Shown: one piece after another, positions 12,441 to 45,000 of the stretch | How positions within the stretch are numbered: position 1 is the stretch's first letter | Layout: each line of letters starts with the position of its first letter | Virus record (IMG/VR): IMGVR_UViG_2718218098_000003 | DNA: 51,596 nt | Strand: one strand, 5' to 3' | From: a virus | Lineage: Duplodnaviria; Heunggongvirae; Uroviricota; Caudoviricetes | Notes under the pieces: model-generated | The model's database searches: none | What the model saw: only the letters and a program-made list of their open reading frames with translations | Told to the model about the DNA's origin: nothing | Position numbers and translations under genes: made by a program

Positions 12441-12637
12441 GCAGGATTGACTACCAGGAATTGGCTGCTGCTAACGCTTTCCTGGCGGATGTGCGGGCGG
12501 GGGCGTTTAACGACCTTTGCGCGGCGTTTGTCAGGCACGCAAAAGTTGCAGGGCTGGATGATGGCGATACCGTAACGCTTAAGGAAGCGACAGATACGCT
12601 GCTGCATTGTGCGGAACAGCTTCGTATATCTGAATAA
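12437..12637 (+). CDS. Hypothetical small protein
   Basis: 66 aa, GTG start overlapping preceding stop (GTGA). Confidence 0.4.
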   Translation: MSRIDYQELAAANAFLADVRAGAFNDLCAAFVRHAKVAGLDDGDTVTLKEATDTLLHCAEQLRISE

Positions 12638-12801
12638 TTAAATTTAGCACTGTAAATAAAATTTAATCCTTAACCGGAGGAATTTCTGCACCCTCAGAAC
12701 AGCAGGAGACCACCCGAAAGGGTGGTAATAAAAATGGCAGAACTAACTAAAGAATGGTTGCAACAAACAATTACTGATATTCAGATCAATTGAGGTGAGA
12801 A

Positions 12802-12972
12802 ATGCGGATGGAAAATTGTTTATTGCCGTATCTGGTGCGGTTTGGGGCGTCGTCATTAACAGTTATTCCACATGTCATGATGGCTGACAATATTATCCCG
12901 GCACCAAAGCGCCATACCGGTATTGCAGCGGCGCGACGTGCAGCAAAGAAACGCAGGAGAGCAAAACGATGA
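12802..12972 (+). CDS. Hypothetical small basic protein
   Basis: 56-aa ORF hand-translated (MRMENCLLPYLVRFGASSLTV...AAKKRRRAKR), SD gaggtgag; stop overlaps next start (ATGA). Confidence 0.25.
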   Translation: MRMENCLLPYLVRFGASSLTVIPHVMMADNIIPAPKRHTGIAAARRAAKKRRRAKR

Positions 12973-13157
12973 AAAACCGTAAAGCAAAGATTCTGTTAGC
13001 TCGCAGAAACGGTGTTGGGGTCTGGCGATGGTTGAGGATTAGTAACAGACGAGTGAGGTTGACGGGGTGTTGCGGGGTGATGGGTCACAGCTGTTGCAAA
13101 AAGCCCAGCGCGGCGCAAAACCGCTGGAAAAACCACTTGCGCACTAAAGGAGAGTGA
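12969..13157 (+). CDS. Hypothetical small Cys-rich basic protein
   Basis: 62 aa; translationally coupled on both sides. Confidence 0.25.
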   Translation: MKNRKAKILLARRNGVGVWRWLRISNRRVRLTGCCGVMGHSCCKKPSAAQNRWKNHLRTKGE

Positions 13158-13158
13158 T

Positions 13159-13416
13159 GTGCCTACATTATTCAGAAAAGAATACCCGCGAAGAAGCAGG
13201 ACAATAGAAATCATGTTTCTCATTCTGTTTATCGTGTTGATGATACCGATATCCCCGCTAATTTTTATCTGGGCAATCGGGAAAATAATTGAGCCAGTTA
13301 TTGAATTGTATAACGACGTGGTATGGGCGTCGTTCAACACACTGCACAATAAAATTAATCCGTATAAGGAGAATGAGATGAACGCATCCCCCAACATTAA
13401 ATCCGGAGCACAGTGA
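13159..13416 (+). CDS. Hypothetical small membrane protein
   Basis: 85 aa with one hydrophobic helix IMFLILFIVLMIPISPLIFIWAIG; SD aaggagag; 3' part may belong to the IS left end. Confidence 0.3.
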   Translation: MPTLFRKEYPRRSRTIEIMFLILFIVLMIPISPLIFIWAIGKIIEPVIELYNDVVWASFNTLHNKINPYKENEMNASPNIKSGAQ

Positions 13417-13520
13417 TGAATAAAGGGGGAAATCAGAGAGGTGTGGAGCCTCGCAGATTTCCGGCATCATTGTGCCCAATACGGGATGCATAAAGTTCCC
13501 TCAGACTGGAGACTCCACAA

Positions 13521-14541
13521 ATGAAATATACACCGGTTGGCGTTGATATCGCAAAACATCTGATTCAGGTTCACTTCATTGATGAGAACACAGGTGAAGT
13601 GGTGGATAAGCAACTTCGTGGCAGAGATTTTCTTGAATATTTCAGCAACCGGGAACCCTGCCTGATTGGTATGGAGGCCTGTGGAGGCTCTCAGCACTGG
13701 GCACGGGAGCTGACAAAGCTGGGGCATAACGTCCGCTTGTTACAGGCCCGCTTCGTTAAGGCATTCGTCATGGGAAACAAGAACGACGTGATGGATGCCC
13801 GGGCTATCTGGATGGCGGTTCAGCAGCCCGGTAAAGAAATTGCCGTCAAAACAGAAGAACAGCAGTCGGTACTGGTTCTGCACCGTACCCGCATGCAACT
13901 GGTGAAGTTCCGGACCGCACAAATTAACGCCCTACACGGGACGTTACTGGAGTTTGGTGAAACCATCCACAAAGGTCGGGCAGCAATGGAGCGGGAGTTC
14001 CCTGAAGCACTGGAACGAATGAAAGAGAGACTGCCACCGTATCTCATCACGGTACTGGAAAACCAGTATAAGCGGGTTGAATGAGCTGGACTCCCTGATA
14101 GAAGACATCGAAAAACAGCTTGCCAGCGTGGCGAAACAGAATGAGACCTGTAAGCGGTTGCTGGATATTCCTGGTGTTGGGCCACTTATTGCGACGGCAG
14201 CGGTGGCCACCATGGGGGAAGCATCAGCGTTTAAATCAGGGCGAGAGTTCGCGGCTTATGTTGGTCTGGTGCCCAAACAGACTGGCTCAGGAGGGAAAAT
14301 TCGCCTGCTGGGGATAAGCAAACGTGGTGATACATATCTGCGAACCCTGTTTATTCATGGCGCAAGGGCGGCAGCATTACTGACTAAAGAACCTGGTCCG
14401 TGGATAACCGAACTGAAAAAACGTCGTCCAGCCAGTGTGGCTATCGTCGCCATGGCAAACAAGCTGGCACGAACAGTATGGGCGATAGCTGCCCATGACC
14501 GTAAGTATGACAGGAACCATGTCAGTATCAGACCATATTAA
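13521..14541 (+). pseudogene. IS110-family recombinase/transposase, interrupted by a +1 frameshift near 14075-14080
   Basis: ORFs 13521-14084 and 14077-14541 together read as one ~340-aa protein (...LENQYKRV / NELDSLIEDIEK...); single extra base in cgggttgaatgag. Confidence 0.65.
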
Positions 14542-14788
14542 TCGCTGATACCGATAAATAATGAACTCTTAACAAAAGGGTGAATGCTGAAAGGTTGCTC
14601 TGGCGGCCCGAGTGATGACAACGACAGGTAAGACCGTGACCTGATAAACCTGAATAACAGCCGGGATATAAAGTCCGTAAGGAGAATAAGGCTCAGGTCA
14701 GCGAATCTCATAGTGGCCCGCAGCTCTGGCTGCAATAAGGCCGGATACAGAGCTGCAACTAATCGTCGATGTCAGAACAACGGATGCC
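14542..14788 (+). ncRNA. Candidate IS-associated structured non-coding RNA (possible bridge-type guide RNA); may instead lie in 13300-13520
   Basis: 247 bp non-coding directly after the recombinase with an 8-bp stem gcagctctg...cagagctgc (14720-14756) and other complementarity; inference only. Confidence 0.25.
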
Positions 14789-15340
14789 TTGCAAACGGGG
14801 ATGCGTTCATACAGAACTGTTATGACCACTATTACCAGAGAAAACGCGGAGATTAAATCATTCATCACTGGTTTCCTGAGCGACCCGGCGCACGATATTC
14901 AATCTTCAGACAGCTTGCTTGCCAATGTGTTTCGTATCGCACTGGCGTCACTGGAAGCAGAGCCAGTGGCGTGGAAGGCAACCTTCACGCAAATTGACAA
15001 TGAATATAATACGTTCACTGCTCTGTATTCTGACAAAGCAGAAGTCGAACGGTGGGTGCGATTGCATGAAATAGGTGACTTTCGGGCAGAAATAACACCG
15101 CTTTACGCAGCGCCGTCAGCGCCGGTCGCTCCAGATGGTTGGATAAGCTGTAGTGAGCGAATGCCAAAAGATGGTCAGCACGTAATTATTTTATGTGATG
15201 GCGCATTCGTTCTTTATGCGCAATATCGGGACGGTGAGTTTTTTGATGTCGTCCGCAATGGTGAGGAATTCTTCGAAACGCAGAGCCGCAATGTAACCCA
15301 CTGGATGCTGCTACCGGAGCCGCCGCAGGAGGTGAACTGA
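14789..15340 (+). CDS. DUF551-type phage protein
   Basis: 183 aa; C-terminal WISCSERMPKDGQHVIIL...THWMLLPEPP pattern; start uncertain. Confidence 0.5.
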   Translation: MQTGMRSYRTVMTTITRENAEIKSFITGFLSDPAHDIQSSDSLLANVFRIALASLEAEPVAWKATFTQIDNEYNTFTALYSDKAEVERWVRLHEIGDFRAEITPLYAAPSAPVAPDGWISCSERMPKDGQHVIILCDGAFVLYAQYRDGEFFDVVRNGEEFFETQSRNVTHWMLLPEPPQEVN

Positions 15341-15732
15341 TGAATGAAGGCGACAATGTTATCACCCTGGTACAGCCAAAATCAGAGGAGGAAGGACTCC
15401 TCAACGTTGTGATAACCGACAGAAAAAGCGGCGAGCAAAAATGCTGTCAGCATATCCGTACAACAATTTCAGAAGTGAATCGTACGATTACCTGTAACCG
15501 ATGCGGATTGGCTTTAGATCCGTTCGAGCTTGTTCTCGACCGTGCGAGAAACGGTGAAAACATCGTGACTGAGATTAAATCACTCTATGCAAAGCGGGAT
15601 GCTCTTCGTGAAGCTGTGGCAAAACTTGAACGTGAAGAGAAAAATGCCAAAGCCCGGTTACGAGCAGCCAGGACAGCAATACTGTATGCGGAAAATGACC
15701 TTAAAAATATTGAGCAGGAGGTGAATCGATGA
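15340..15732 (+). CDS. Hypothetical protein with Cys cluster and C-terminal coiled coil
   Basis: 130 aa; CCQH...CNRCG followed by a coiled-coil-like C-terminus. Confidence 0.45.
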   Translation: MNEGDNVITLVQPKSEEEGLLNVVITDRKSGEQKCCQHIRTTISEVNRTITCNRCGLALDPFELVLDRARNGENIVTEIKSLYAKRDALREAVAKLEREEKNAKARLRAARTAILYAENDLKNIEQEVNR

Positions 15733-15812
15733 CCTGGCCTGAAGCATTCACAACGGTAGGAATTGCGATGGCGGTGGCGCTGGTGGTGTATTCGATTTGC
15801 CGTTGGAGATAA
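15729..15812 (+). CDS. Possible 27-aa membrane peptide
   Basis: MTWPEAFTTVGIAMAVALVVYSICRWR hand-translated; ATGA overlap with preceding stop. Confidence 0.25.
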   Translation: MTWPEAFTTVGIAMAVALVVYSICRWR

Positions 15813-19232: not shown

Positions 19233-19307
19233 GGCCCTTTAGCTCAGTGGTGAGAGCGAGCGACTCATAATCGCCAGGTCGCTGGTTCAAATCCAGCAAG
19301 GGCCACC
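19233..19307 (+). tRNA. tRNA-Ile (anticodon CAU, lysidine-type; ileX/ileZ-like)
   Basis: Cloverleaf read by hand; anticodon loop ctCATaa; close to recalled E. coli ileX. Confidence 0.8.
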
Positions 19308-19309
19308 TG

Positions 19310-19386
19310 TCGTCACTAGCTCACCTGGAAAGAGCATCAACCTTCTAAGTTGAGCGTACGAGGTTCGAGTCCTCGGTGGCGGTCCA
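19310..19386 (+). tRNA. tRNA-Arg (anticodon UCU)
   Basis: Anticodon loop ctTCTaa, T-loop ttcgagt, CCA encoded. Confidence 0.65.
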
Positions 19387-19388
19387 GT

Positions 19389-19464
<76 letters not shown>

Positions 19465-19467
19465 TAT

Positions 19468-19542
<75 letters not shown>

Positions 19543-42052: not shown

Positions 42053-45000
42053 ATGGGTAAAGGAAGCAGTAAGGGGCATACCCCGCGCGAAGCGAAGGAC
42101 AACCTGAAGTCCACGCAGTTGCTGAGTGTGATCGATGCCATCAGCGAAGGGCCGGTTGAAGGTCCGGTGGATGGATTAAAAAGCGTGCTGCTGAACAGTA
42201 CGCCGGTGCTGGACACTGAGGGGAATACCAACATCTCCGGTGTCACGGTGGTGTTCCGTGCCGGTGAGCAGGAGCAGACACCGCCGGAGGGGTTTGAATC
42301 CTCCGGCTCCGAGACGGTGCTGGGTACGGAAGTGAAATATGACACGCCGATCACCCGCACCATCACGTCGGCAAACATCGACCGACTGCGCCTGACCTTT
42401 GGTGTGCAGGCACTGGTGGAAACCACCTCAAAGGGGGACCGGAATCCGTCGGAAGTCCGCCTGCTGGTTCAGATACAACGTAACGGTGGCTGGGTGACGG
42501 AAAAAGACATCACCATTAAGGGCAAAACCACCTCACAGTATCTGGCCTCGGTGGTGGTGGGTAACCTGCCGCCGCGCCCGTTTAATATCCGGATGCGCAG
42601 GCTGACGCCGGACAGCACCACAGACCAGCTGCAGAACAAAACGCTCTGGTCGTCATACACCGAAATCATCGATGTGAAACAGTGCCACCCGAACACGGCA
42701 CTGGTCGGCGTACAGGTGGATTCGGAGCAGTTCGGCAGCCAGCAGGTGAGCCGCACTTACCATTTCCGTGGGCGTATTCTGCAGGTGCCGTCGAACTATA
42801 ACCCGCAGACACGGCAATACAGCGGTATCTGGGACGGCACCCTCAAACCGGCATACAGCGACAACCCGGCCTGGTGTCTGTGGGATATGCTGACCCACCC
42901 GCGCTACGGCATGGGGAAACGTCTTGGTGCGGCAGATGTGGATAAATGGGCGCTGTATGTCATCGGCCAGTATAGTGACCAGTCAGTGCCGGACGGCTTT
43001 GGTGGCACGGAGCCGCGCATCACCTGTAATGCGTGGCTGACCACACAGCGCAAGGCGTGGGATGTTCTCAGTGATTTCTGCTCGGCGATGCGCTGTATGC
43101 CGGTATGGAACGGGCAGACGCTGACGTTCGTGCAGGACCGGCCGTCGGATAAGGTGTGGACCTATAACCGCAGTAATGTGGTGATGCCGGAGGATGGCGC
43201 GCCGTTCCGCTACAGCTTCAGCGCCCTGAAGGACCGCCATAATGCCGTTGAGGTGAACTGGATTGACCCGGATAACGGCTGGCAGACGGCGACAGAGCTT
43301 GTGGAGGACACGCAGGCCATTGCCCGTTACGGTCGTAACGTCACGAAGATGGATGCCTTTGGCTGTACCAGCCGGGGGCAGGCGCACCGCGCCGGGCTGT
43401 GGCTGATTAAAACGGAGCTGCTGGAAACGCAGACCGTGGACTTCAGCGTGGGTGCCGAAGGGCTTCGCCATGTACCGGGCGATGTCATTGAAATCTGCGA
43501 TGATGACTATGCCGGTATCAGCACCGGTGGTCGCGTGCTGGCGGTGAACAGCCAGACCCGGACGCTGACGCTCGACCGTGAAATCACGCTGCCATCCTCC
43601 GGCACCACGCTGATAAGCCTGGTTGACGGAAATGGCAATCCGGTCAGCGTGGAGGTTCAGTCCGTCACCGACGGCGTGAAGGTGAAAGTGAGCCGGGTTC
43701 CTGACGGCGTTGCTGAATACAGCGTGTGGGGGCTGAAGCTGCCGACGCTGCGCCAGCGCCTGTTCCGCTGCGTGAGTATCCGTGAGAACGACGACGGCAC
43801 GTATGCCATCACCGCCGTGCAGCATGTACCGGAAAAAGAGGCCATCGTGGATAACGGGGCGCACTTTGACGGCGACCAGAGCGGCACGGTGAATGGTGTC
43901 ACGCCGCCAGCGGTGCAGCACCTGACTGCCGAAGTCACCGCAGACAGCGGGGAATATCAGGTGCTGGCCCGCTGGGACACGCCGAAGGTGGTGAAGGGCG
44001 TGAGCTTCCTGCTTCGCCTGACCGTGGCAGCGGATGACGGCAGTGAGCGGCTGGTCAGCACGGCCCGGACGACGGAAACCACATACCGCTTCAGGCAGCT
44101 GGCGCTGGGGCGTTACATGCTGACGGTCCGGGCGGTAAATGCGTGGGGGCTGCAGGGCGATCCGGCATCGGTATCGTTCCGGATTGCCGCACCGGCAGTG
44201 CCGTCGCGGATTGAGCTGACGCCGGGCTATTTTCAGATAACCGCCACGCCGCATCTTGCCGTTTATGACCCGACGGTACAGTTTGAGTTCTGGTTCTCGG
44301 AAACGCGGATTACCGATATCAGGCAGGTAGAAACCACAGCCCGCTATCTTGGTACGGCGCTATACTGGATAGCCGCCAGTATCAATATCAAACCGGGCCA
44401 TGATTATTACTTTTATATCCGCAGTGTGAACACCGTTGGCAAATCGGCATTCGTGGAGGCCGTCGGTCGGGCGAGCGATGATGCGGAAGGTTACCTGGAT
44501 TTTTTCAAAGGCAAGATAACCGAATCCCATCTCGCCAAGGAGCTGCTGGAAAAAGTTGATCTGACGGAGGATAACGCCAGCAGACTGGAGCAGTTTTCGA
44601 AAGCGTGGAAGGACGCTAACGATAAATGGAATGCGATGTGGGGCGTCAAAATTGAGCAGACCAAAGACGGCAAACATTATGTCGCGGGTATTGGCCTCAG
44701 CATGGAGGACACGGAGGAAGGCAAGCTGAGCCAGTTTCTGGTTGCCGCTAACCGTATCGCGTTTATTGACCCGGCAAACGGGAATGAAACGCCGATGTTT
44801 GTGGCGCAGGGCAACCAGATATTCATGAACGACGTGTTCCTGAAGCGCCTGACAGCCCCCGCCATTACCAGCGGTGGCAGTCCTCCGGTATTTTCCCTGA
44901 CATCAGACGGAAAGCTGACCGCTAAAAATGCGGATATCAGTGGTAGTGTGAATGCGAACTCAGGAACGCTCAACAATGTCACGATTAACCAGAACTGTAC

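What the first reader, a model, noticed from the sequence alone, without database searches (positions are those of the whole stretch)
13420..14790. IS110-family element with frameshifted recombinase and a structured flanking non-coding region (possible bridge-type RNA)
Two overlapping ORFs (13521-14084, 14077-14541) together encode a DEDD/RuvC-like plus Tnp-domain recombinase of the IS110 family, split by one extra base at about 14075-14080. IS110-family elements are known to encode a structured guide (bridge) RNA in their non-coding end. Here there are ~100 bp upstream and 247 bp downstream of non-coding sequence, the latter with strong stems (for example 14720-14756). The element lies inside a run of small prophage ORFs, so its exact ends and target site are unresolved. 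Whether the frameshift is real matters for whether the element is active.
Basis: partly seen in the sequence, partly recalled or inferred. Interest (0 to 1): 0.65.

Follow-up and report, generated by a model that had tools for sequence, protein, structure and literature searches.

The report
ISEc11-like insertion sequence with guide RNA
This is an ordinary but complete RNA-guided insertion sequence, a close cousin of the well-studied ISEc11, sitting between the ribosome-binding site and start codon of a prophage gene; its guide RNA is intact and its recombinase gene carries a one-base frameshift.

Summary
Window 13372-14814 (+) is a 1,443-bp IS1111-group (IS110-family) insertion sequence in the E. 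coli M6 chromosome. Its repaired transposase is 94% identical to TnpEc11, the seekRNA model enzyme.

- **Ends:** set from the empty K-12 allW-allB site. The element has 14-bp perfect subterminal inverted repeats and makes no target duplication.
- **Frameshift:** one extra G (GG to GGG, 14074-14076). Four sister strains have an intact gene at the same locus, and M6 has an otherwise identical intact copy at allW|allB. Real mutation or assembly error cannot be decided.
- **Guide RNA:** the 3' non-coding region holds a bridge/seekRNA at about 14627-14764.
  - Two loop strands match this copy's own flanks (UAAGGAGAAU; AAUAACAG, the complement of CTGTTAT).
  - Two further strands match the element's ends.
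  - Guides and stems covary across relatives.
- **Target:** the Shine-Dalgarno sequence and start codon of a gene. This holds for nearly the whole clade, 29 of 31 sites, and I found no paper describing it.

Verdict: a new member of a known kind.

The parts
13366..13371 (+). Left half of the target: the Shine-Dalgarno sequence AAGGAG of the interrupted DUF551 gene. This is host DNA, not part of the IS.
   Evidence: The K-12 empty site keeps AAGGAG directly before TTTGTTATG. All copies of this IS have AAGGAG at the left junction with unrelated DNA upstream of it.
13372..14814 (+). The insertion sequence: 1,443 bp including the extra G, 1,442 bp in intact copies. AA follows the junction on both sides in this copy (13372-13373 and 14815-14816). 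The ends are therefore ambiguous by up to 2 nt if AA is a shared core.
   Evidence: Occupied versus empty allW-allB site. An identical copy elsewhere in M6. Coordinates.
13378..13391 (+). Left subterminal inverted repeat, ATGAACGCATCCCC.
   Evidence: Perfect 14-bp reverse complement of 14797-14810.
13521..14541 (+). Transposase gene tnp, 339 aa when intact. Here it is split into 13521-14084 and 14077-14541.
   Evidence: Pfam; NCBIfam NF033542, 332 bits; 94% aa identity to TnpEc11.
14074..14076 (+). GGG run holding the one extra G that shifts the frame. Intact copies have GG.
   Evidence: This is the only difference from M15 over 1.6 kb. It is the only indel against M9 over 49,950 bp. It is the only difference from the allB copy of M6.
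14627..14764 (+). Bridge RNA / long seekRNA region (extent of the covariance-model match).
   Evidence: Homologous to the ISEc11 non-coding region that yields the 82-nt and 154-nt seekRNAs (PMC11187229). The model scores 152 bits here and finds full-length hits 3' of tnp in 25 held-out loci.
14638..14699 (+). Target-binding loop: stem GACCUGA/UCAGGUC, stem CCU/AGG, an internal loop carrying both target guides, capped by hairpin GGAU/GUCC.
   Evidence: Compensatory changes in 4 of 7 pairs of the outer stem and 2 of 5 pairs of the cap. All 7 outer pairs covary once distant relatives are added.
14653..14660 (+). 5' target guide AAUAACAG, complementary to the right flank CTGTTAT (14817-14823), which runs into the ATG.
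   Evidence: Across the family this guide tracks the spacer before the ATG: 4.8 of 8 matches for a locus's own flank against 2.8 of 8 for other loci's flanks; 0 of 20,000 permutations reach that.
14678..14687 (+). 3' target guide UAAGGAGAAU, identical to the left junction 13365-13374.
   Evidence: Exact 10-nt repeat found only at these two places in 13300-14900. It covaries with the left flank in relatives.
14704..14711 (+). 5' donor guide AAUCUCAU, complementary to the left-end sequence ATGAGAT (13373-13379).
   Evidence: Covaries across relatives: AUUACAU with ATGTAAT, AUGACAU with ATGTCAT, AUUUCAU with ATGAAAT.
14745..14750 (+). 3' donor guide AUACAG, identical to the last 6 nt of the right end (14809-14814).
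   Evidence: Covaries across relatives: ATATAA or ATATAG in the RNA where the right end is ATATAA or ATATAG.
14715..14742 (+). Hairpin between the two donor guides: GGCC/GGCC closing GCAGC-loop-GCUGC.
   Evidence: 98-100% of cells paired, with compensatory changes.
14789..14794 (+). TTGCAA, the likely -35 box of the promoter formed when the ends join in the circular form. The -10 would be CAG|AAT across the junction.
   Evidence: Conserved in nearly all relatives. A junction promoter is reported for ISEc11 (PMC11187229). For this element it is inferred; it scores only 8 of 12 against the consensus.
14797..14810 (+). Right subterminal inverted repeat, GGGGATGCGTTCAT.
14815..14824 (+). Right half of the target, AACTGTTATG, ending in the start codon (14822-14824) of the DUF551 gene.
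   Evidence: RefSeq places the CDS start there. The related uninterrupted prophage reads AAGGAAAGCTGATATG.

Best explanation
This is a copy of an IS1111-group insertion sequence that is a near relative of ISEc11 but aimed at a different target.

**Mechanism, by homology with ISEc11.** The element leaves its site as a circle whose joined ends create a promoter. That promoter transcribes tnp together with the 3' non-coding region. The non-coding region is processed into a seekRNA/bridge RNA that binds the DEDD/Ser transposase.

**How the RNA guides insertion.** One internal loop pairs with the two strands of the target. Here the target is AAGGAG(AA)CTGTTAT, the Shine-Dalgarno sequence, spacer and first bases of the start codon of a gene. 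A second loop pairs with the joined ends of the element (ATACAG|AATGAGAT). Recombination then places the element, always in the gene's orientation, between SD and ATG without duplication.

**This copy.** It sits in front of a prophage DUF551 gene of E. coli M6. Its ends and its RNA are intact. Its tnp as deposited is broken by one extra G, so it yields a 187-aa protein without the C-terminal Ser domain. It could still be moved by the identical transposase made from the intact copy at allW|allB in the same genome.

**Shown:** family membership, exact ends, target, guide-flank and guide-end matches, covariation, and the intact sister copies.
**Inferred:** RNA expression and processing, circle formation, the junction promoter, and complementation in trans.
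For: - Pfam and NCBIfam hits above their cut-offs.
- 94% aa identity to TnpEc11 and 88.6% nt identity to ISEc11 copies.
- 14-bp perfect subterminal repeats, and no duplication on comparing the occupied and empty allB site.
- Six independent target genes, each hit between SD and ATG in the sense orientation: DUF551, allB, fdrA, mtnK, a plasmid DNA methylase gene, and traH for ISEc66.
- Differences from ISEc11 in the non-coding region cluster in the guide segments. ISEc11 has CAGUAUUUU and GUGAAAAU, which fit its published target GTGAAAATACTG. This element has AAUAACAG and UAAGGAGAAU, which fit its own flanks (PMC11187229).
- Guide-flank covariation: 0 of 20,000 permutations reach the observed match.
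- Donor guides covary with the ends.
- The proposed structure is 96% paired against 22-37% when the partners are slid, with 7 compensatory pairs. With 25 held-out loci found by the model at E <= 1e-9, 16 of 27 pairs are compensatory.
- Intact tnp at the same locus in M9, M11, M15 and M19, and at allB in M6.
- No + strand promoter-like site inside the integrated element, in line with PMC11187229.
Against: - There are no expression data, so the RNA and its ends are not observed.
- Rfam has no matching family.
- Folding energy is not better than shuffles.
- One helix I proposed at the base of the donor loop is not supported (52% paired).
- The GCAGC arm could pair with either of two GCUGC segments.
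- The predicted junction promoter is weak by consensus (8 of 12).
- The exact strand-exchange positions (the core) cannot be fixed. Right-junction bases after ACAG vary among sites (AA, TT, AT, CT).
Confidence: 0.9

Rival explanations
1. The frameshift is an assembly error in the M6 record, and this copy is in fact intact and autonomous, like the copies in the sister strains.
For: - Four clonal sister assemblies have GG at the same locus.
- The change is a one-base extension of a homopolymer, the typical residual error of long-read-only assemblies (my own knowledge).
- The rest of the element is identical to the intact allB copy.
Against: - It is the only indel against M9 in 49,950 bp and there is none in 4.5 kb at allB, so the assembly is not riddled with such errors.
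- GG is a very short run.
- RefSeq keeps the gene as a pseudogene.
- No reads are available to me.
Confidence: 0.4
2. The split gene is expressed through programmed +1 frameshifting, or as two polypeptides that reassemble. The frameshift would then be regulatory rather than a defect.
For: The ORFs overlap by 8 nt, and ORF2 has a TTG at 14077.
Against: - Every other copy examined, at 98-100% identity, has a single 339-aa ORF.
- There is no slippery or shift-prone motif and no SD before 14077 (sequence).
- The change is private to one isolate.
Confidence: 0.03
3. The 3' non-coding region is only a transposase-binding end or terminator, and the target is chosen by the protein. The matches between the RNA region and the flanks are chance.
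For: Folding energy is unremarkable and Rfam gives no hit.
Against: - A 10-nt exact match to the left junction and a 7-nt complement to the right flank.
- The guides change in step with flanks and ends in relatives.
- Compensatory pairs in the stems.
- The homologous ISEc11 region is experimentally required in cis or in trans and can be reprogrammed (PMC11187229).
Confidence: 0.03
4. AAGGAG belongs to the element as its own ribosome-binding site for the short ORF at the left repeat, so the element does not target SD sequences.
For: AAGGAG lies 6 nt before an ATG inside the left repeat and is present at every copy.
Against: - The empty K-12 site already has AAGGAG before TTTGTTATG.
- The related empty prophage site has AAGGAAAG.
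- In relatives the SD-like bases vary from site to site: CAGGAG, AAGGAG, GAGGAG, GGGGAG.
Confidence: 0.02

Closest known systems
ISEc11 (= ISSso1), IS1111 group; seekRNA model of Siddiquee et al. 2024 (PMC11187229)
   Same: - Length: 1,442/1,443 bp.
- Layout: about 150 nt, tnp, about 270 nt.
- Transposase 94% identical.
- The same subterminal repeat core, ATGAACGCATCC.
- The same RNA scaffold, and the conserved TTGCAA near the right end.
   Different: - 88.6% nt identity overall.
- Both target guides and one donor guide are replaced.
- The target is AAGGAG-NN-(C)TGTTATG rather than GTGAAAATACTG.
- The outer stem of the target loop carries compensatory changes (GACCUGA/UCAGGUC against GACUCAC/GUGAGUC).
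- PGAP gives it only the generic family name.
ISEc66 and ISXne4 (ISfinder relatives of ISEc11)
   Same: They belong to the same clade. ISXne4 is the published example of natural re-direction by guide replacement. The ISEc66 copy examined also sits between AGGA and the ATG of traH.
   Different: ISEc66 is 89% nt identical with other guides (AAUAAUUC; CAGGAAAU).
IS621 bridge RNA system (Durrant et al. 2024, PMC11208160; structures 8wt6 and others)
   Same: - A DEDD plus Ser recombinase; the C-terminal domain aligns at E 8e-8.
- One RNA with a target loop and a donor loop, each pairing with both strands.
   Different: - IS621 is in the IS110 group, with the RNA in the left end and only 2-3 bp subterminal repeats.
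- Sequence similarity is confined to the C-terminal domain.
- Here the order of the top- and bottom-strand guides is as described for IS1111 elements.

Membership tests
IS110 family (DEDD transposases) | N-terminal RuvC-like DEDD domain (PF01548). | tested here: met
   ORF1 scores E 3e-12, 47 bits against a cut-off of 29.
IS110 family (DEDD transposases) | C-terminal Transposase_20 domain (PF02371) with the conserved Ser-Gly motif. | tested here: met
   ORF2 scores E 1e-22, 80 bits. GSGGK aligns with the SG motif of IS621 and ISCro4. That this Ser is the catalytic one is from my own knowledge.
IS110 family (DEDD transposases) | The whole protein passes NCBIfam NF033542, 'IS110 family RNA-guided transposase'. 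| tested here: met
   332.5 bits against a cut-off of 140, using the intact allele from M15.
IS1111 group | Subterminal inverted repeats of 7-17 bp with short extensions outside them. | tested here: met
   A 14-bp perfect repeat, with 6 nt outside it on the left and 4 nt on the right.
IS1111 group | The longer non-coding region lies downstream of tnp. | tested here: met
   273 nt on the right against 149 nt on the left.
IS1111 group | Sequence-specific, oriented insertion without target duplication. | tested here: met
   Empty versus occupied allB site. Every site examined lies between an SD and an ATG, in the sense orientation.
seekRNA / bridge RNA systems | [quoted passage not shown] | tested here: met
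   UAAGGAGAAU equals the left junction, and AAUAACAG is the complement of CTGTTAT. Family-wide covariation supports this.
seekRNA / bridge RNA systems | The RNA carries segments matching the donor, that is the element's own ends. | tested here: met
   AAUCUCAU against ATGAGAT, and AUACAG against the right end, with covariation in relatives.
seekRNA / bridge RNA systems | A conserved secondary structure that presents the guides in internal loops. | tested here: met
   96% of cells paired with 7 compensatory pairs. 16 of 27 pairs are compensatory once distant hits are added. One proposed helix failed.
seekRNA / bridge RNA systems | The RNA is expressed, binds the transposase, and is required for circle formation and insertion. 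| not testable with these tools
   Shown only for ISEc11 (PMC11187229).
ISEc11 as the same IS (an isoform) | Near-identity to the reference. The ISfinder convention, as I recall it, is at least 95% aa or 90% nt. | tested here: not met
   94% aa and 88.6% nt.
ISEc11 as the same IS (an isoform) | The same target, GTGAAAATACTG. | tested here: not met
   The flanks are AAGGAG | (AA)CTGTTATG.
Any Rfam family | A covariance-model match. | tested here: not met
   No hit at E <= 1 in 12500-15800.

The most novel reading that the evidence does not exclude
The clade around this element is specialised for translation initiation regions. The clade spans Gamma- and Betaproteobacteria, with transposases down to about 55% identity. 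Its bridge RNA carries an SD look-alike (NAGGAGAAU) as one target guide. The other guide reads the spacer plus the AU of the start codon. The element therefore lands between SD and ATG of genes, in the sense orientation.

Such a position would have three consequences:
- It guarantees read-through transcription of a promoter-less element.
- It hands the host SD to an ATG in the left repeat.
- It strips the downstream gene of its SD.

I found no description of this target class in the searchable literature. ISEc11, the member studied experimentally, is the exception in the clade.
Probability: 0.7. Interest if true: 0.55.

Novelty: new member of a known kind. Interest (0 to 1): 0.38.

Why it matters
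For the genome at hand it matters little. It is one insertion sequence in a prophage, already annotated as a frameshifted IS110-family transposase.

Its wider value lies in three points:
- It is a natural re-targeting of the best-studied IS1111 element, with only 6% change in the protein. That makes it a ready-made second guide and target pair for TnpEc11-type enzymes.
- The guide, flank and end matches allow all four guide segments of an IS1111-type bridge RNA to be read from sequence, the donor-binding ones included.
- Relatives show a consistent preference for the SD-to-ATG interval. This suggests a lifestyle in which the element borrows host transcription and silences the gene behind it. 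That idea can be tested with simple reporter assays.

Tried and rejected
- **Rfam scan of the region:** no hits.
- **Thermodynamic folding of the 3' flank:** not distinguishable from shuffles.
only its 5-bp core is conserved.
- **My proposed base helix of the donor loop (74-76 with 132-134 in alignment A2):** fails in distant relatives.
- **Longest-exact-match scoring of guides against flanks:** too crude for the 5' target guide. I replaced it with ATG-anchored position-wise matching.
- **Metagenome scan with the exact guide region:** only 2 contigs, so no target logo could be built.
- **Phage collection:** no copy of the element.
- **Prosseda et al. 2006 on the ISEc11 junction promoter:** not held in the library.
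- **ISfinder sequences of ISXne4 and ISEc66:** could not be retrieved from the supplement.
- **Programmed frameshifting:** considered and rejected, because all other copies have one ORF.
- **The other two of the four matching places in M6:** not located.
Full report
**Where the window comes from.** Window 13300-14900 is 100% identical to the chromosome of E. coli strain M6, isolated from a mouse (NZ_CP010186.1). RefSeq annotates the gene there as 'IS110 family transposase, frameshifted'. It lies between a DUF4014 gene and a DUF551 gene in the early region of a lambdoid/Rac-like prophage.

**Check of the observation.** The two ORFs exist. ORF1 (13521-14084) matches Pfam DEDD_Tnp_IS110, and ORF2 (14077-14541) matches Transposase_20; both score well above the curated cut-offs. 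The intact allele from a sister strain scores 332 bits on NCBIfam NF033542, 'IS110 family RNA-guided transposase'. It is 94% identical (320 of 339 residues) to the ISfinder transposase of ISEc11. Its C-terminal domain aligns with the solved IS621 and ISCro4 recombinases, including the Ser-Gly motif.

**The frameshift.**
- It is a single extra G in the run at 14074-14076: AAGCGGGTTG here, AAGCGGTTG elsewhere.
- The clonal sister strains M9, M11, M15 and M19 carry the element at the same prophage position with an uninterrupted 339-aa gene.
- Over 49,950 aligned bases, M6 and M9 differ by this one indel and 29 substitutions. Twenty-six of the substitutions form one cluster in the tail gene region at 43273-43909.
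- M6 holds a second copy between allW and allB. Its sequence is identical to the prophage copy except for the extra G, and its transposase gene is intact.
- The frameshift is therefore private to one deposited sequence. I cannot tell whether it is a recent mutation or a residual assembly error, and I put the error at about 0.4.
- The truncated product of 187 aa keeps the DEDD domain and lacks the Ser domain. All other copies have one ORF, and nothing in the sequence suggests programmed frameshifting.

**Ends and target.**
- Copies at 98-100% identity occur in unrelated contexts. They lie upstream of allB, fdrA, mtnK, a plasmid DNA methylase gene and the prophage DUF551 gene.
- The junctions line up. 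The uninterrupted K-12 allW-allB spacer reads ...TTTTACAAGGAG|TTTGTTATGTCT.
- Together these fix the element as AATGAG-ATGAACGCATCCCC ... GGGGATGCGTTCAT-ACAG, with no duplication. In the window this is 13372-14814.
- The inverted repeats are subterminal, 14 bp long and perfect, as expected for the IS1111 group.
- In this copy AA follows both junctions (13372-13373 and 14815-14816). If AA is a shared core, as CT is for IS621, the ends shift by up to 2 nt.
- A related prophage without the element reads AAGGAAAGCTGATATG at the same place.
- In every case the left flank is the Shine-Dalgarno sequence of the downstream gene. The start codon follows 5-7 nt after the right end, and the element has the orientation of that gene.

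**The RNA.** ISEc11 is the element with which Siddiquee et al. showed four things: the 3' non-coding region is essential in cis or in trans, it yields 154-nt and 82-nt RNAs bound to the transposase, it contains one segment complementary to each strand of the target GTGAAAATACTG, and it can be reprogrammed (PMC11187229). Durrant et al. likewise place the predicted bridge RNA of IS1111 elements in the right end (PMC11208160).

I aligned the non-coding region of the window element with ISEc11 and ISEc66. The scaffold is conserved and the differences sit in short blocks.
- ISEc11 has CAGUAUUUU (the complement of AAAATACTG) where the window has AAUAACAG (the complement of CTGTTATT).
- ISEc11 has GUGAAAAU where the window has UAAGGAGAAU.
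- The 10-mer TAAGGAGAAT occurs exactly twice in 13300-14900: at the left junction (13365-13374) and in the RNA (14678-14687).
- CTGTTAT is the right flank, running into the ATG.

Two further segments match the element's own ends. AAUCUCAU (14704-14711) is complementary to ATGAGAT at the left end. AUACAG (14745-14750) equals the last six bases of the right end.

**Evidence from relatives.** I fetched 80 related loci from species-representative genomes and aligned their non-coding regions. All four segments change together with their partners.
- The left-end guide reads AUUACAU where the left end is ATGTAAT, AUGACAU where it is ATGTCAT, and AUUUCAU where it is ATGAAAT.
- The right-end guide reads AUAUAA or AUAUAG where the right end does.
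- The SD-like guide follows the left flank.
- The 8 variable bases of the 5' target guide match the 8 bases before the ATG at 4.8 positions on average for a locus's own flank. For other loci's flanks the figure is 2.8. None of 20,000 permutations reaches the observed mean.

**Secondary structure.** I wrote down a structure of two stems enclosing an internal loop with both target guides, capped by a small hairpin, followed by a second hairpin flanked by the two donor guides.
- On 17 non-identical sequences it is 96% paired, against 22-37% when the partners are slid. Seven pairs show compensatory change.
- A covariance model built from these sequences finds one site in the window (14627-14764, 152 bits).
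- The model also finds full-length hits on the coding strand 3' of tnp in 25 loci not used to build it, at E <= 1e-9. These include betaproteobacterial elements whose transposase is only about 55% identical.
- With those hits added, 16 of 27 pairs show compensatory change.
- One short helix that I proposed at the base of the donor loop is not supported.
- Free-energy z-scores are unremarkable and Rfam has no matching family.

**How it most likely works.** By homology with ISEc11, the element excises as a circle. The joined ends bring the conserved TTGCAA (14789-14794) to 17 nt from CAG|AAT, giving a weak promoter by consensus. I found no + strand promoter-like site inside the integrated element. 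Transposase and RNA are made from one transcript, and the RNA-protein complex pairs one loop with the circle junction ATACAG|AATGAGAT. The other loop pairs with AAGGAG(AA)CTGTTAT and recombines the two. The prophage site and the mtnK site fit both target guides over 16-17 nt. The allB, fdrA and plasmid sites fit less well in the two bases after AAGGAG and in one spacer base, so some mismatch is tolerated. Everything after 'by homology' is inference for this element.

**Consequences here.**
- The DUF551 gene has lost its SD.
- The DUF4014 reading frame now runs 45 nt into the element.
- The host SD sits 6 nt before the ATG of the left repeat and opens a 12-codon ORF. In relatives this ORF is conserved only in its first four codons.
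- The prophage copy cannot make a full-length transposase from the deposited sequence. It keeps both ends and the RNA, so the allB copy could in principle mobilise it.

**A wider pattern.** Thirty-one junction pairs with different flanks were examined, from Escherichia, Symbiopectobacterium, Xenorhabdus, Brenneria, Erwinia, Sodalis, Caballeronia and a betaproteobacterium. Of these, 29 have an ATG 5-7 nt after the right end, where chance would give about 1.5. Twenty-six also have an SD-like left flank. Further betaproteobacterial right ends show the same ATG. ISEc11 itself is the exception.

None of the papers on IS110/IS1111, bridge RNA or seekRNA in the searchable library mentions a Shine-Dalgarno or start-codon target. 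That is an absence in a limited library, not proof of novelty. Target logos in PMC11187229 may already show it.

**Distribution.** Copies at 95% identity or more are rare. They occur in about 32 of 20,395 complete E. coli replicons and 23 PLSDB plasmids, mostly in front of the same plasmid methylase gene. Two metagenome contigs carry the element and no deposited phage does. A swarm of relatives at 80-90% identity, among them ISEc11, ISEc66 and unnamed elements, is much more common.

**Verdict.** The element is a new member, by ISfinder-type thresholds, of a known and mechanistically understood kind. It is of modest interest in itself. Two things raise the interest somewhat: it is a naturally re-targeted twin of the experimental model, and its clade prefers translation start sites.

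Noticed in passing
L013-L092 and the E. coli loci; window 13366-13371 and 14815-14824: Almost all relatives of this element, down to about 55% transposase identity in Betaproteobacteria, sit between an SD-like AGGAG and an ATG 5-7 nt past the right end (29 of 31 sites). ISEc11 is the exception.
   Followed up: partly
L096 and L097 position 3690 (M6 and M9, allW-IS-allB): Over 4.5 kb the two clonal strains differ by one base, and it is the first base after the right end of the IS: ACAG|ATTG in M6, ACAG|TTTG in M9 and K-12. The M6 base equals the first base of the left end and of the prophage copy's right flank. This hints at recombination at or across the junction.
   Followed up: partly
L005 (E. 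coli STEC299): The element is flanked on the left by the allW end and on the right by the fdrA start codon. The interval from allB to fdrA is therefore missing, with the IS at the joint. This looks like a deletion between two copies, or an IS-mediated deletion.
   Followed up: no
window 43273-43909: Twenty-six substitutions cluster in about 640 bp of the tail gene J region between M6 and its clonal sister M9. The remaining 49 kb shows 3 substitutions and 1 indel. This may be a recombination patch with another prophage or an assembly collapse.
   Followed up: no
window 13378-13416: The ATG of the left inverted repeat lies 6 nt after the captured host SD and opens a 12-codon ORF, MNASPNIKSGAQ. 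Relatives always have a short ORF here, but it is conserved only over MNAS. The DUF4014 ORF (13159-13416) ends inside the IS.
   Followed up: partly
L096 739-2194 (M6) and L097 (M9): allW, directly upstream of the second IS copy, is annotated as frameshifted in both strains.
   Followed up: no
window 19233-19542: A prophage-borne cluster of four tRNA genes: Met-CAT (RefSeq calls it Ile in M9), Arg-TCT, Thr-TGT and Gly-TCC.
   Followed up: no
L095 (metagenome contig ERZ1034678.22515): A copy with the same guide sequence has the right flank CAGCAGCATG, which does not match the TGTTAT guide but still has an ATG at +7. It may be an off-target or half-match insertion.
   Followed up: no
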